A DNA stretch of 64,000 nt from Styela clava (Eukaryota). Location of the stretch: the NCBI RefSeq assembly GCF_964204865.1, contig NC_135256.1, forward strand, positions 15,190,001 to 15,254,000. Reading direction: 5' to 3'. Position numbers: made by a program. How positions within the stretch are numbered: the first letter of the stretch is position 1; each line of letters starts with the position of its first letter. Positions 30,001 to 60,000 of this stretch are shown here, piece by piece.

Positions 30001-33000
30001 GATCTATTACTGAAGCATCATTAAGCTTCAAAGTATCTTTAGTTGAACCACTAGAGAGATATTTGCCACTCTGATCAACTTTGCTTGAGCTACTCAGGCT
30101 GTTGCTTTGAGAATAATTGTTTGAGTAATGTGGATAATTATCTGCATGACTCGAATGCCTAGATGGTAAGTAAGATTCTGGTTCACTTGTATGCTTGTTG
30201 TATTTCATTGGGCTGCCATTATATTGCGAAGCGAACATTTTTGAATAAGCGTTAGCTGTATCTGCATTCATGTAACTTCTAGTAATGTCTCGATCTTGAT
30301 AACCTTGGTGCAATGGTTGGAGTCCAGCAGCAGCTTGACTAAGTCCCAAATGACCGGGGGATGGATGATAATTCTTTGGAAAAGGTGTTCTCCTGTCCAC
30401 AGCATAAGATGCAGCTTCTCTAGTAGGATCGAAAGCAGCGTATGGATTCAGATAGGATGAAAGCATATCATAAGGGGCATATGACCCAGAAAAAGATGGT
30501 GCCATCTGTTGCTGTAGAAGGCTAGAGTTTGGCAGTATTGATGAAAAGGGAGATATCCTGGGATCTATCGCATGCTGACGTAGTCTTGCTTGTGTTGAGT
30601 ACTGTAAATAAAACACAAATAATTTTTACTCAAGACCAATCATTGTGCACAATGTAGAAAACTGACACACTTTGACACATATACAACAACTTCTTTCAGC
30701 AGAGGCCAGAGATGCTAATTAAAAGGATGCAACTAGCTCAAATATGCAAAAATCCACCAAATGTGATCCATTTGGAGCTATTTCAAAATCACATTCCTCA
30801 GATTGTTTTATAATTTTAAAATCTCTGCACGTTGTAATATCAAAAATATTTGAGCAGAATAAAAAAAACGCTGCTCCCGAAGTATGCGAACCAAGATGGC
30901 GGACATCGGAACGTAACATGGGTAACAGGTTAGGGTTAGGCGATAATTTTTTTCCAATTTTCCTTATTTTAGTCCTATTATCAGTTCGAAGACTAGCCAA
31001 GAGCCTCCCGTAGTATTTATACCTAAAATTATGGCCTAACCCTAACCTAGTACACATATTACATTCCGATGTCCGCCATCTTGGTTCGCATACTTCAGGA
31101 GCCCCAAAAAAACAATAACAGTGGACAATTGGTACAAACCGGCCCCATATCTGGATATCCCGTTGCAAGATGATCATTGGCCTTTGGAGTGAAGTTTCTG
31201 TAACAAAAACAAACAATATTGACAATTTTCACTATAACATATTAAAAAAAGTGGTATAATGTTTTAGAGTTGAGAAGAAAAACTCTTCGCTGCTGCAATA
31301 TTACAATGTTTAATTGTAAACTTTATGCATAAGTATGAATTTGAGAGGGGCTGAATTCAATGAATGCATGGTTATATCCATCCCCCAGTTTAAAATGTAA
31401 AAACCATGTTCTTTTTGCTTTATCATTATTATTATGATCACTGTATTATTCAGGCTGATGAAATGGTACTCCCGTGGCATGTGTACCAGGTTAGGGTTAG
31501 GGCATAATTTTATTCGGATTTCCATTATTTTAGTTCTATAACGAGTTCGGGGACTGTCTGTGTTAGCCAAGTGAATAAACCCCCTGCCCATAGGTTTCAG
31601 TCGCTTTGCATAACTTGATGTAATATAGGCGAACAAAATTAGTTACCTCCATATTGGTTAGTACACATACTTCTGCTGGAGCAGCGATGAAATAATATAC
31701 TCTTATCTGTGACCAGTCAATTTCGAAATTAAAAAATACTTGGAGTTTAACTACCACATACGGTATGTGACATATTGCGTATTTCTGAAATCATTAATAT
31801 ACATGTATTTATTCTCACAAGGCTTACCTCAGAGAGGATTCGGATACATAGTTATGCAAATTTCTGGTTGCATCGTATTCTCCATTCTTGGGCGTGGAGT
31901 TCAGGGGAGTTGAGTTTTCTCTCCGCTAAAAAATAATAACAACTCAATATGAAACAAAATGAATTCAAACACCTAATATAATAATTTAGTCGAAGAAGGA
32001 AATAAGTCAATCGAAATGGAATTACCATCAACTTATGATGATGAAGATTGGGAAAAAGCAGTAAAAATTGTCAATAACAAACAATTTTGATATTTAAAAA
32101 ATTAATTCAAAAAATAAAAAATTCATAATTGAAAAAATATATCTCATATCTGTTTTTCGATCAAGATAGTCAATGAATTTAATACTGGGATTTATCATAT
32201 GCATATGTGATGAGTCCAATATATATTCAACTATAATCTCGGGATCAAAAAAATCAGAATTATCAGCAAAATTTATAAAAATGATTAAAACCTAGTGTCG
32301 ATGGAAATTGCTTCGAACGCAATTTATATATGATCTATTTTTCGTTGTTCTAGACGTGCGGTGTGTGCACCGCAGCTGACGACTACCGTTATATTTGTTG
32401 TTTCGAAAGTTATTTAAGAAAAGCGTGTCGTGTCGTTCTTATCGTGTAATCTTATGTTATGTTTTTTGTATAACTTTAAAGTTGTAAGTTCGGAAATGAG
32501 GAAACTGAATACTGAAACGAGGTAACCTCATGTTAGTGAATTTGATACGAAATAGAGCCAGTTCTTAAACATTTGAAAACCATCGATCTTTACAATGTTT
32601 ATAGGGTTCTCATTTGAAGTCAATTTTGAAAACAATACCGATATTCGGAGTCAGACGAACGTGTTTTGCGCAACCCAATACGTGAACCGTTAGGAGCCGC
32701 TAGAGAGATATCATCAAACGAGAGAACAAAGGAAAAGAAAAAAGGAGATAAGAGAAACTTGCGACAAGAAATGACGTCATCGGAATTAGTCTACAACCTA
32801 CCACAGCAGCCGTGGTGGTATTGCGGATGGCAGAAGGAAGCAAGGCTGGGGAAGCTGTCAGTTGTTGTCCTATGTTGTCATCGTTGACTGTCAGGCTTCT
32901 TCCGGGAACTCGAAGGACAGAGAAGGCGAAGCATAGGGTTCTTGTTCCTAACCTGGCGCTTACCGTAATTAGGGGTAAATACAATATGGTTTACAGCTTT

Positions 33001-57000: not shown

Positions 57001-60000
57001 TCCCACAAAACACCAAAGCCACATCTTCACGCTAATATTATTTGACTCGTTGAGCCACTGAGACTTAAATACCGCCGAAAATCTTCATAACTTGCGTGAA
57101 ACAAGATCATAGGTAACAAAACGGACAGAAAGGAATACGCAAACAATATCACGACTGAGTGTAGAAGTAGATATTAAACGTCAGCAAAAAGTCATACCGC
57201 AACACATTGCATTGATTATGACACGATGCGCTAACAATATTTAGCATCCTTTTCCCTTCCTTTGGCTACGTAACCGAAGTACCGACGCTTCGCCAGTTGC
57301 TTATTTTTTCAAATAACAAAGTACCCTTACTCAAAGTATATGTCGACGGCTACGATAGTTTCACATGTGCCTGTCAGCGCATTGTTCAAACTTTATTTTC
57401 CAGTCACAAAAATTAGTAATAAATCCAAATTTTGCGAGTTCATCTACAACCAATTAACGCATGATGGTAAACAATACAAATTCTCAATCTTCATTCTGGC
57501 GCTCAGGTGGACCAAACATATCATGACTTCTGCTGTTTAAACTCGGCCGAAACAAAATATGAGCCTGCACTTGTTTCCCGGACAGAGTGCGTCCAATCTA
57601 TGTAAATATGCGACAAAGTGCCAACCGCATTCGTAATTTATTTGACGAAGACACATATCGCCCCTGATCCGAACCGAGACAAAAACCGCACGCCTTTGCA
57701 GTTTATAATCGAAGCAATTTACGACAACTCGGGAGCATTCGAACATTTACCACTAGTATAAAGTAAATTTATAAGTAGGTACTTTTTAACGGCAATCAAT
57801 TCCTTTTCTAATTAAATCCGTAATTAGCACACTTGACTGTAAAAAATCTAACATAAATAAACTCATTTGCCGTGGTATTTTCGGCAAATATCGCGAGGTC
57901 GAACCTCACAATGTTCTTTAAAAATTTTAATACGGAGGCGACCATCGAGTCTGTTTTTAGTTTTGAGAGACTAGTGTTCGATGACGAATACGTCATGCAG
58001 CGAGAAGCTTGAGCATCGAGAGGCAGGCGTGCGCGTTCGTATTAAACGACAAACAGTGCATGACGAATGTGAAAGAATGAACAGAATAGCGCCGGCGGTG
58101 GGACCATATGAGCGTTTGTGCGCTATCAGAGAGAATAGAAGAAAATAAAATTACTCGCAAATAGTGAGCCGGAGGAATGAGCAAATGAGCAGGTGTGATA
58201 GAAATTCAGAGCATTTGCATAGGCGATGCTTACGCGTTTCTCAATGTTTGGGAAAGCGTTGATTTTCGATGCTGAGCGTGTGCGCTCTTGAACTTATGTC
58301 ATTTAAAATCCCTGGTATTAATTAGATAGAGGACCAACTTTAATAAAAGCATAAACGCGGGGTAGCGATTTCACAGCTAATTCGATTCGACAGATAGTCA
58401 AAAGCGCGAAGGTGATGGATGCACTGTCCTGCATTACAAACCATTTCAGTCCAAGTAGATATGGTAGCGCATTACACAAAAGCTTTCGTCAAGTAATGTG
58501 CAAGAAACAAACGTAAAAAATATGACGTCGCAATAATCGTGCGGTAACCCTGCAAAATGATTTATTTATACATAAGTTGGGATTGTCATCTTTCTAAGAG
58601 CAGAATCCACCGCAATTTTTGATAAAAAACGACGACCAAATTTTGCGCTTTAAGTAGACAACGCCAAATTTGGGAGATGTGACAATATCGAAACACGCAA
58701 TGAAATAAGACAAGGTATATCATTTGGACTGAAAGCTATGTCAACATGACACAGATAGATCGACTCTTTAAACAGTCTTATATTTCTTTGATTCATTTGC
58801 AGGATTGAACGTTGTGAAATTTCAAGTACAAAAAATCTAGAAAATGCAAGTTATCAGTTAGAGCAAAACAGAGCTAGTGAGCGATGTCAAACCAGAGCCA
58901 TTACATCTCTGGTCTAACCATAGACTCCTTCTCGATGGAACCATTATACACGTCTTTTGATTGTGTATTAATTTATTGAACACGAAACGTACATATGGAT
59001 CGTTTTGTTATTATGTTGTTGTTAGGATTCTTTTATCATTCTTGTTCTTACGAAAAAATCGCATTTCTCATTACCTACTGGACCAATTGTTTTTAGTTTT
59101 TCAGAGGTTAAAGATTGTATTCTTGCTACTAGAAGGCTTTTATTTTTGTTTATTTCAAAATCTGTGTGGCCTCGACGGGGATTCGTTTTTTTTCTGTGAG
59201 ATGAGGTCATGGAAATTAAAAATTGCGCTCCTTGTCAGGCTACTGTGATAGATTGCATACCCGCGCCATTTCGTGTCCATATATTTGAGCATCGCTCTCT
59301 TGTTGGACACGAACTGGACCCATGAATCGTTTTGTTATTAATATTCTGTTGTTGTTCTTCTTATCGTCATGAAAAAATTCTTTTCTTTTTATCTACTGGA
59401 CCAATTGCCTTAAAATTTTCAGTGGTTAAAGATTGTATTTTCGCTAGAAGGCTATTTCCCCGTGTCCATATATTTTACCATAGCTTTCTTGGTATTATGT
59501 TGTTGTACTTCTTTATCGTCTTGGGAGACATCGACCCTATTCCGCCATCCGTAACTTGACACCCATCAACCGTATTTCGTCATCCCTATTTTTAAATCAC
59601 CAATATGACATTTATGCTATCACCACTATAGATGATTTCGACTGATATTTTATCTGTTTAATCCTTGAATTTCTACTTGATAACAAAGTTCCGTACCTGC
59701 TTCAACATATTGTCGAACCCATTATTGTGCGGCTTCCACAAAGCTGTAGGTCGTAGAGTTTTCTCAAATTATCGCCGCATTTGTATACTCTCCTCATAGG
59801 GTCATTTTCAGGCCTTGAAATTTTCCTAAGTGAGGACGATTTGGTTAACATGTGGTAGATGGATTATAATAAAAAATTATTCGTTGACTCGATATTCAGG
59901 CGCGTAGATCACCATAGAGTAAGATGCCTAATGAGAGAGAGTAACAGTAACGGTAGTGCAGACAACAGGATATGTCTGAAAACATCTGCGTCGATTAGCC

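What the first reader, a model, noticed from the sequence alone, without database searches (positions are those of the whole stretch)
31140..58200. BCOR may start ~22-26 kb further upstream, nesting the intronless PTPN1/2 gene antisense inside a BCOR intron
Seen: no recognisable downstream domain exons for the orphan exon 54118-54506 were found in 36-54 kb. Its phase-2 donor joins in frame to BCOR exon 31140-31197. An in-frame route to exon 31828-31925 also exists via small candidate exons 47228-47260 (2-2), 44243-44294 (2-0) and 40493-40531 (0-0, HPYFTHMGPTGAK). The exon has uORFs in its leader, and a promoter-like GC-rich patch with a minus-strand donor lies at ~57750-58200. Known: vertebrate BCOR has alternative distant promoters in a large CpG-rich domain. 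Inference: a two-promoter BCOR with alternative N-termini, with PTPN1/2 as a nested gene sharing the proximal promoter.
Basis: inference. Interest (0 to 1): 0.65.

Follow-up and report, generated by a model that had tools for sequence, protein, structure and literature searches.

The report
Possible distal first exon of BCOR
A short exon that looks protein-coding lies 22 kb upstream of a BCOR-like gene and probably belongs to it, which would put a phosphatase gene inside a BCOR intron; this is ordinary gene architecture and still needs RNA evidence.

Summary
The coordinates are right. The minus-strand exon 54506-54118 (ATG 54392, 91 codons, donor AAT|GTGAGT, phase 2) is the only strongly coding-like segment in 35-60 kb. 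It ends exactly in a strong donor, which 13 of 1166 ORFs do, so it is probably a real spliced 5' exon. No domain exon or coding-like terminal exon follows it before BCOR.

A better link is an unnoticed 94-nt exon, 35843-35750 (phase 2 in, 0 out). It puts the orphan exon, 31925-31828, 31197-31140 and the large exon in one open frame.

The 36.3-54.1 kb stretch has the same T>A strand bias as BCOR introns, and an intergenic control has none. However, it is not CpG-depleted, whereas the BCOR body and the PTPN1/2 unit are. The broadly expressed BCOR unit therefore probably starts at or below 36-37 kb, and the 54-kb exon would be an alternative distal start.

PTPN1/2 lying antisense in a BCOR intron is likely (about 0.6). 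The 22-kb extension is about even odds. No RNA data or eukaryotic sequence collection was available. This is ordinary architecture.

The parts
54118..54506 (-). Orphan exon. Acceptor before 54506, three upstream ATGs in the leader, ATG at 54392, 91 full codons (54392-54120), phase-2 donor AAT|GTGAGT.
   Evidence: Read. Codon log-odds 13.7 bits; 0 of 123 stop-free 91-codon windows of the surrounding 22 kb reach it. Top segment in 35-60 kb. Best ATG..GT candidate in 31.9-58.7 kb. 13 of 1166 ORFs end in a donor this strong.
36301..54117 (-). Proposed long intron (the 'desert'): no domain, no coding-like exon, not CpG-depleted, T>A bias on the minus strand.
   Evidence: Pfam. Exon scans. CpG o/e 1.24. 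Minus-strand TA skew +0.061, z 6.6, 16 of 18 one-kb bins positive.
35750..35843 (-). Newly proposed 94-nt exon. Acceptor cacag|G, donor AAG|GTATGT, phase 2 in and phase 0 out. It also has its own in-frame ATG at 35785.
   Evidence: Total score 15.0. 0 of 368 and 0 of 225 null candidates reach that. Codon score tail 0.03 on an intron background. The full chain has 0 stops.
31828..31925 (-). BCOR exon, phase 0 in and phase 2 out, with no in-frame ATG.
   Evidence: Codon score tail 0.0105 and 0.005.
31140..31197 (-). BCOR exon, phase 2 in and phase 0 out, with a weak donor CCG|GTTTGT.
   Evidence: Codon score tail 0.013 and 0.002.
28859..30601 (-). Large BCOR-like exon, entered in phase 0.
   Evidence: 185 bits.
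33600..34931 (+). PTPN1/2 coding sequence in one exon. An acceptor lies about 15 nt before the ATG.
   Evidence: Pfam Y_phosphatase 3.7e-74. Best PDB matches are human PTPN2 at 1.2e-104 and PTPN1 at 7.6e-103. Acceptor read.
32298..33129 (.). CpG-rich island between the BCOR exons and PTPN1/2, holding a palindromic TGACGTCA at 32772. It is the likely PTPN1/2 promoter and may be bidirectional.
36304..37200 (-). Edge of the CpG-depleted domain and a CpG-rich patch. It holds the only strong minus-strand donor of 35.8-37.4 kb (last exon base 37120, CCG|GTAAGG). Candidate near promoter and non-coding first exon of BCOR.
57600..58300 (.). It is CpG-dense but not unique and has no strong minus-strand donor.

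Best explanation
The ORF at 54392-54120 is a genuine first coding exon on the minus strand. Most likely it is a distal, alternative 5' exon of the BCOR-like gene.

Its phase-2 donor would splice across about 18 kb to a 94-nt exon at 35843-35750. The chain then continues to 31925-31828, 31197-31140 and the large exon at 30601, all in one frame.

The broadly expressed form of the gene probably starts nearer. One option is the 36.3-37.2 kb patch, using ATG 35785 in the same 94-nt exon.

In both forms the single-exon PTPN1/2 gene and its CpG-rich promoter lie antisense inside the BCOR intron 35749-31926.

Shown: the anatomy, the frames, the codon bias, the strand bias and the CpG domains. Inferred: every splice junction, both start sites and the use of either ATG.
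For: 1. The orphan ORF is coding-like.
- It scores 13.7 bits over 91 codons, and 0 of 123 null windows reach that.
- It is the highest-scoring segment on either strand in 35-60 kb: 17.3 bits against a next best of 11.3.
- It is the best first-exon candidate in 27 kb: 17.6 against 7.6 for the next independent one.

2. It ends in AAT|GTGAGT. Only 13 of 1166 ORFs of >=30 codons end in a donor that strong.

3. BCOR exons 31925-31828 and 31197-31140 are coding-like in the BCOR frame, with tails of 0.005 and 0.002. Neither offers a start except ATG 31148. A phase-0 ATG exon upstream is therefore needed. The proximal 1.7 kb offers only a bare ATG|GT at 32028.

4. Exon 35843-35750 is the best internal-exon candidate outside the antisense of the PTP coding sequence, at 15.0. 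None of the 593 null candidates (368 and 225) reaches that. It has exactly the phases needed on both sides, and the chain has 0 stops over 756 codons. It is also the best phase-2 acceptor partner for the orphan donor.

5. Minus-strand T>A skew:
- 36.3-54.1 kb: +0.061 (z 6.6).
- BCOR introns: +0.071.
- Intergenic control: -0.001.
- Plus-strand-transcribed stretches: -0.126 and -0.074.
T>A on the coding strand of introns is a general feature (PMC5786239, passages read).
Against: - No RNA evidence of any kind was available.
- The 36.3-54.1 kb stretch is not CpG-depleted (o/e 1.24). The BCOR body (0.52) and the PTP unit (0.68) are. In Ciona, methylated domains cover exons and introns and fall sharply at the 5' end of the transcription unit (PMC3827831, passages read). 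The depleted unit ends at 36304 or 32298.
- The CpG pattern is fully explained without any exon upstream of 32.3 kb, if PTPN1/2 runs to about 36.3 kb. Plus-strand AATAAA signals lie at 36264 and 36277.
- The skew in 34.9-36.3 kb is of the plus-strand kind. Exon 35843-35750 would therefore lie antisense to a probable PTP 3'UTR.
- The codon score of exon 35843-35750 is only a 3% tail on the intron background. One intron null candidate reaches 14.2.
- Three upstream ATGs precede ATG 54392 if acceptor 54506 is used.
- The 91-aa peptide matches nothing in Pfam, PDB or the ESM Atlas.
- Short N-terminal motif patterns recalled from vertebrate BCOR were absent.
- Each phase match is worth only a factor of 3.
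- My splice-site weights are recalled generic values, not trained on this species.
Confidence: 0.45

Rival explanations
1. BCOR starts near 36-37 kb. Its first coding exon is 35843-35750 with ATG 35785, so PTPN1/2 is nested in a 3.8-kb intron. The 54-kb exon belongs to a separate, lineage-specific gene or short transcript in the unmethylated domain.
For: The edge of CpG depletion lies at 36304 with a CpG-rich patch just upstream. The only strong minus-strand donor there is at 37120. ATG 35785 is in frame with 0 stops. The donor after 35750 is the best phase-0 donor upstream of 31925. Three of the window's genes have single-exon coding sequences.
Against: The orphan exon ends in a strong donor. 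No coding-like internal or terminal exon follows it in 36-54 kb. The desert carries minus-strand intron-like skew over all 18 kb. The 19 codons upstream of ATG 35785 are open and mildly coding-like, with a tail of 0.06.
Confidence: 0.22
2. BCOR and PTPN1/2 diverge from one bidirectional promoter at 32.3-33.1 kb, so there is no nesting. BCOR translation starts at the bare ATG at 32028 or at ATG 31148. The 54-kb exon and the 35.8-kb exon are unrelated or spurious.
For: The CpG-rich island 32298-33129 holds TGACGTCA and lies between two CpG-depleted units. This is the pattern of two diverging methylated gene bodies. The plus-strand-type skew and AATAAA signals at 36264 and 36277 fit a PTP transcript running to 36.3 kb.
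Against: No ATG-bearing exon ending in phase 0 exists in 31926-33600 except ATG|GT at 32028, and about two such pentamers are expected there by chance (the estimate is mine). A start at ATG 31148 would make the codon bias of two exons coincidental, with tails of 0.005 and 0.002. A first exon running from the island to 32026 would carry many upstream ATGs (read).
Confidence: 0.2
3. The 54-kb ORF is a chance open frame or part of a non-coding transcript. It encodes nothing.
For: Open frames of about 100 codons are common here, with seven of >=100 aa in non-coding parts of 35-58 kb. There is no homologue in any library searched. The leader has upstream ATGs.
Against: Its codon score lies outside all null windows. 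Its peptide is rich in serine, proline and tyrosine, unlike the other long ORFs there (read). It ends exactly in a consensus donor.
Confidence: 0.12

Closest known systems
Vertebrate BCOR / BCORL1 gene layout (recalled, not tested here)
   Same: Small 5' exons precede one very large coding exon. ANK repeats lie near the C-terminus. A long intron lies at the 5' end.
   Different: Only the ANK repeats were detected by a tool here. The N-terminal peptide shows no match to short motif patterns recalled from vertebrates. A gene nested in the vertebrate 5' intron is not something I know of.
Nested intronic genes on the opposite strand (textbook examples recalled: genes inside human NF1 and F8 introns)
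   Same: A small, compact gene with its own promoter lies wholly inside an intron of a larger host gene, in antisense orientation.
   Different: Here the host junctions are inferred from frames and codon bias only.
Ciona transgene inserted in the first intron of a body-methylated gene (PMC3827831, passages read)
   Same: A promoter inside a methylated host unit stays unmethylated from about 0.8 kb upstream to about 1 kb downstream of its start. The 0.8-kb CpG-rich island at 32298-33129, inside CpG-depleted DNA, looks like this.
   Different: That case is an experiment with measured methylation. Here methylation is only inferred from CpG depletion, and the species is not known.
Prediction of transcription units from strand bias (PMC1391917, passages read; PMC5786239, passages read)
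   Same: The same logic applies: excess T over A and fewer poly(A) signals on the sense strand mark a transcribed region and its direction.
   Different: Those methods were calibrated genome-wide. Here the controls are a handful of stretches in one window.

Membership tests
BCOR / BCORL1 | Cluster of ANK repeats in the C-terminal part | tested here: met
   Pfam Ank_4 1e-10 on 20795-20959 and Ank 8e-5 on 19946-20323.
BCOR / BCORL1 | C-terminal PUFD domain that binds PCGF1/3 | tested here: inconclusive
   No hit exon by exon: Pfam at E<=10 on trimmed exons and PDB at E<=10. The domain would be split over at least two exons, and the joined model was not searched. My reading of likeness to human BCOR is recalled.
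BCOR / BCORL1 | Pfam 'BCOR' region just before the ANK repeats | tested here: inconclusive
   No exon-level hit. The joined model was not searched.
BCOR / BCORL1 | N-terminal motif shared by vertebrate BCOR and BCORL1 (recalled) | tested here: not met
   Six short patterns were searched in all six frames with no match. The patterns are from memory, so this is weak.
BCOR / BCORL1 | Binding to BCL6 or PCGF1 | not testable with these tools
   Needs experiment.
PTPN1 / PTPN2 | Classical PTP catalytic domain closest to PTPN1 and PTPN2 | tested here: met
   Y_phosphatase 3.7e-74 over the full profile. Best PDB matches are PTPN2 at 1.2e-104 and PTPN1 at 7.6e-103.
Nested antisense intronic gene | Host exons on both sides joined in one mRNA | not testable with these tools
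   No transcript data. Only frame compatibility and exon scores.
Nested antisense intronic gene | Inner gene wholly within one intron, on the other strand, with its own promoter | tested here: inconclusive
   The coding sequence 33600-34931 (+) and the CpG-rich island 32298-33129 lie between host exons 35750 and 31925. If the PTP 3'UTR runs to 36.3 kb it overlaps host exon 35843-35750.
Gene with two promoters and alternative N-termini | Each first coding exon has its own in-frame ATG | tested here: met
ATG 54392 and ATG 35785 both give 0 stops.
Gene with two promoters and alternative N-termini | Two mapped transcription starts | not testable with these tools
   No start-site data.
Mosaic (gene-body) methylated invertebrate genome | Two classes of CpG o/e with sharp edges at gene ends | tested here: met
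   o/e is 0.57 over 1-32.2 kb against 1.24-1.33 over 36.3-58.7 kb, with edges at 32298, 33129 and 36304. Methylation itself was not measured.

The most novel reading that the evidence does not exclude
The BCOR locus is split into two epigenetic halves. A CpG-depleted, broadly expressed unit has PTPN1/2 and its unmethylated promoter island nested in an intron. An 18-22 kb non-depleted 5' domain is transcribed from a distal, tissue-restricted promoter, which gives BCOR a different 91-residue N-terminus. It would be a natural counterpart of the Ciona transgene-in-intron experiment, and a case of one gene spanning a methylation boundary.
Probability: 0.3. Interest if true: 0.4.

Novelty: new member of a known kind. 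Interest (0 to 1): 0.28.

Why it matters
If true, the gene model of a Polycomb co-repressor in this genome gains about 175 N-terminal residues and a second promoter, and PTPN1/2 becomes a nested gene. That matters for annotation, for knock-out and reporter design, and for reading methylation maps at host and nested gene pairs. It does not change what is known about how genes are built.

Tried and rejected
- Rfam at gathering thresholds, tRNA and tandem-repeat scans gave nothing relevant.
- Self-BLAST of the window found no second copy of the orphan exon in it.
- PDB and the ESM Atlas gave nothing for the 91-aa peptide.
- BLASTP of the orphan peptide against the large BCOR exon gave a best E of 2.1.
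- Six N-terminal motif patterns recalled from vertebrate BCOR had no match.
- PUFD and BCOR-domain detection exon by exon gave no hit. The ANK exon against PDB hit only generic ankyrins.
- A paper search for BCOR with Ciona gave 5 papers, none relevant by title or abstract. A search for BCOR with alternative promoter listed nothing relevant.
- Rejected: a direct join of the orphan exon to 31925, which gives 26 stops.
- Rejected: an alternative phase-0 donor inside the orphan exon, TCA|GTAGAA, at -6.5 bits.
- Rejected: the candidate exon 32908-32802, whose score reflects the GC-rich island, where both strands score high.
- The asymmetry in poly(A) signals (35 on the minus strand against 61 on the plus strand in the desert; 22 against 43 in BCOR introns) mostly follows from the base skew. 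After an order-2 correction the ratios are 0.93 against 1.15, so I do not count it as independent.
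Full report
SETTING

The window has no N and about 35% G+C. I do not take it for human. Its phosphatase ORF is only a distant match to the human proteins and has no introns in its coding sequence. The species was not determined.

Genes seen:
- a GTPase with MMR_HSR1 in one ORF, 1284-2996 (+);
- a PCI-domain gene, about 3.6-4.4 kb (-);
- a RINGv protein in one ORF, 9782-10705 (-);
- a Tctex-1 gene, 13.5-14.5 kb (+);
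- a PTP in one ORF, 33594-34931 (+).

The PTP is closest to human PTPN2 (1.2e-104) and PTPN1 (7.6e-103).

The name BCOR rests, by tools, on ANK repeats only. The PUFD and the Pfam BCOR region gave no hit exon by exon. The joined model was not searched, so that membership stays open. My own impression of likeness to human BCOR across the ANK-to-C-terminal exons is recalled, not tested.

THE OBSERVATION

Every coordinate in the finding is correct.
- The minus-strand exon 54506-54118 has a good acceptor.
- Its leader holds three upstream ATGs.
- ATG 54392 is preceded by in-frame stops.
- It has 91 full codons and a donor AAT|GTGAGT in phase 2. Unspliced, the frame stops at once.
- Exon 31197-31140 takes phase 2 and hands phase 0 to the large exon at 30601.
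- Exon 31925-31828 is open from its first base in the BCOR frame but has no in-frame ATG.

A script confirmed the frames. Orphan to 31197 gives 0 stops. Orphan directly to 31925 gives 26 stops.

IS THE ORPHAN EXON REAL?

Its length alone says nothing. Seven stop-to-stop frames of >=100 aa lie in non-coding parts of 35-58 kb.

Codon usage does say something. I used a log-odds table trained on seven confident ORFs of the window.
- The 91 codons score 13.7 bits, and 0 of 123 stop-free 91-codon windows in the surrounding 22 kb (both strands) reach that.
- The segment is the highest on either strand in 35-60 kb: 17.3 bits against 11.3 for the next.
- It is by far the best ATG-to-donor candidate on the minus strand between 31.9 and 58.7 kb: 17.6 against 7.6.
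- Among 160 ORFs of >=60 aa outside the masked genes, 6 score as high per codon. Those 6 include the enclosing ORF itself and true exons of unmasked genes.

The ORF also ends exactly in a strong donor. Only 13 of 1166 ORFs of >=30 codons do so, real exons included. I conclude it is probably a spliced first coding exon.

It matches nothing in Pfam, PDB or the ESM Atlas. It is not repeated in the window.

WHAT FOLLOWS IT?

Pfam found nothing above chance:
- in all 233 minus-strand ORFs of >=30 aa between 34.95 and 58.6 kb, best E 0.0057;
- in 150 of the 156 plus-strand ORFs of >=38 aa between 35.2 and 60.9 kb, none at E<=0.003. The six beyond 59.66 kb were not sent.

No internal or terminal exon candidate in 36.3-54.1 kb stands out. 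The best internal total is 10.3 and the best terminal total is 9.5.

- 44294-44243 scores -2.9 bits and ranks 42 of 59.
- 47260-47228 has an acceptor below threshold.
- 40531-40493 ranks 11 of 59.

A BETTER LINK

The best internal candidate outside the antisense of the PTP coding sequence is a 94-nt exon at 35843-35750. Its acceptor is cacag|G and its donor is AAG|GTATGT. Its peptide is KNNDPFFNRLTEVIKTNRDMNLVNMGLDEYK and its total score is 15.0.

None of 368 candidates from 43.8 kb of desert and upstream strands reaches 15.0. None of 225 from both strands of BCOR introns does either; the maxima are 10.8 and 14.2.

It takes phase 2 and gives phase 0. That is exactly what is needed between the orphan donor and exon 31925. 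The five-exon chain has 0 stops over 756 codons. The exon also has its own in-frame ATG at 35785.

On a CpG-poor intron background its codon score is a 3% tail. The scores of 31925-31828 and 31197-31140 are 0.5% and 0.2% tails. The two proximal exons therefore look coding, so BCOR needs an upstream ATG exon ending in phase 0. The proximal 1.7 kb offers only a bare ATG|GT at 32028, which is expected by chance.

TWO GENOMIC FOOTPRINTS

First, CpG. CpG o/e by region:
- 1-32.2 kb: 0.57
- BCOR body: 0.52
- 32.2-32.9 kb: 1.38
- PTP unit, 32.9-36.3 kb: 0.68
- 36.3-54.1 kb: 1.24
- 54.5-58.7 kb: 1.33

Likelihood edges fall at 32298, 33129 and 36304.

In Ciona, methylated domains coincide with gene bodies, introns included. 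They have sharp edges at the ends of transcription units and mark broadly expressed genes. A promoter placed in an intron of a methylated gene stays unmethylated for about 1 kb on each side (PMC3827831, passages read; PMC4776710, passages read). If this genome behaves likewise, the broadly expressed BCOR unit ends at 36.3 kb or at 32.3 kb, not at 54-58 kb.

Second, strand bias. Minus-strand T>A skew by region:
- BCOR introns: +0.071 (z 6.0)
- 36.3-54.1 kb: +0.061 (z 6.6), with 16 of 18 one-kb bins positive
- intergenic control, 10.75-13.35 kb: -0.001
- 58.7-64 kb: -0.009
- plus-strand-transcribed stretches: -0.126 and -0.074

T over A on the coding strand of introns is general (PMC5786239, passages read). 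Strand bias has been used to predict transcription units (PMC1391917, passages read). The desert therefore looks like a minus-strand intron.

The skew is weak in 54.5-56.95 kb (+0.015) and strong again in 56.95-58.7 kb (+0.112). A start near 58-59 kb is therefore not excluded.

SYNTHESIS

My best reading, at about 0.45, is a BCOR gene with a near, broadly used start and a distal alternative start.
- The near start would be the 36.3-37.2 kb patch. Its donor is at 37120, the only strong one there, and it would use ATG 35785.
- The distal start would be at or above the 54-kb exon. Both would feed exon 35843-35750.

PTPN1/2 would then sit antisense in intron 35749-31926, with its promoter as the CpG-rich island at 32298-33129, which holds TGACGTCA.

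The rivals are:
- a near start only, with the 54-kb exon as a separate gene (0.22);
- a bidirectional promoter at 32.3-33.1 kb and no nesting (0.20), which explains the CpG map equally well but leaves BCOR without a credible start codon;
- a chance ORF (0.12).

LIMITS

No transcript data and no eukaryotic sequence collection were on hand.

Supplementary tables of the methylation papers were closed. They could list methylated genes, but would only help if the species were the same.

The splice-site weights are recalled generic values, and the codon table comes from about 2,500 codons of this window.

VERDICT

The finding is a sound piece of gene-model reasoning. The orphan exon is probably real, and the nesting of PTPN1/2 in BCOR is likely, at about 0.6 summed over the first two models. 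The 22-kb extension is about even odds and would be an alternative start, not the main one. This is ordinary gene architecture and of modest interest.

Noticed in passing
window 1-64000; edges at 32298, 33129, 36304: The window falls into two CpG classes. It is CpG-depleted (o/e 0.57) over the densely packed genes at 1-32 kb and over the PTP unit. It is not depleted (1.05-1.33) from 36.3 kb to the end. This is the footprint of mosaic gene-body methylation.
   Followed up: yes
window 47100-48000: This is the densest CpG patch of the window, with up to 28 CpG per 300 bp and o/e about 2. It lies in the middle of the gene-free stretch, with no ORF, Pfam or Rfam hit. It could be an orphan CpG island or regulatory element.
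   Followed up: partly
window 53000-54200: A local CpG-poor dip (21 CpG in 1.2 kb; o/e about 0.5-0.8 in most 200-bp bins) lies directly downstream of the orphan exon, inside an otherwise CpG-rich domain. It is unexplained.
   Followed up: partly
window 30873-31102, 31465-31675, 8085-8281: Copies of a short palindromic, MITE-like element with a telomere-like CCCTAA doublet. Two lie in BCOR 5' introns next to exon 31197-31140.
   Followed up: partly
window 37298-37476, 58973-59161, 59300-59457: A second repeat of about 160-190 bp (about 76% identity) occurs once in the gene-free stretch and twice, inverted, near 59 kb.
   Followed up: no
window 1284-2996, 9782-10705, 33594-34931: Three unrelated genes (GTPase, RINGv protein, PTPN1/2) each have their whole coding sequence in one ORF, while BCOR, the PCI gene and the Tctex-1 gene are split.
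   Followed up: no
window 31989-32084 (+): A small plus-strand frame with a 24-codon ATG ORF and a high codon score (17.3 bits) lies antisense just upstream of BCOR exon 31925. There was no family hit and it is unexplained.
   Followed up: partly
window 25713-25898 (-): A tandem repeat of a 7-residue unit (T-D-K-T-I-P-V/I type) lies inside a large BCOR exon.
   Followed up: no
window 23048-23128 (-): An in-frame (phase 0 to 0) 81-nt exon candidate with score 13.6 lies in a BCOR intron. It may be a cassette exon.
   Followed up: no
window 60916-61871 (+), 62322-62738 (-): These ORFs resemble, from memory, hAT-type transposase remnants. Pfam gave nothing significant.
   Followed up: partly
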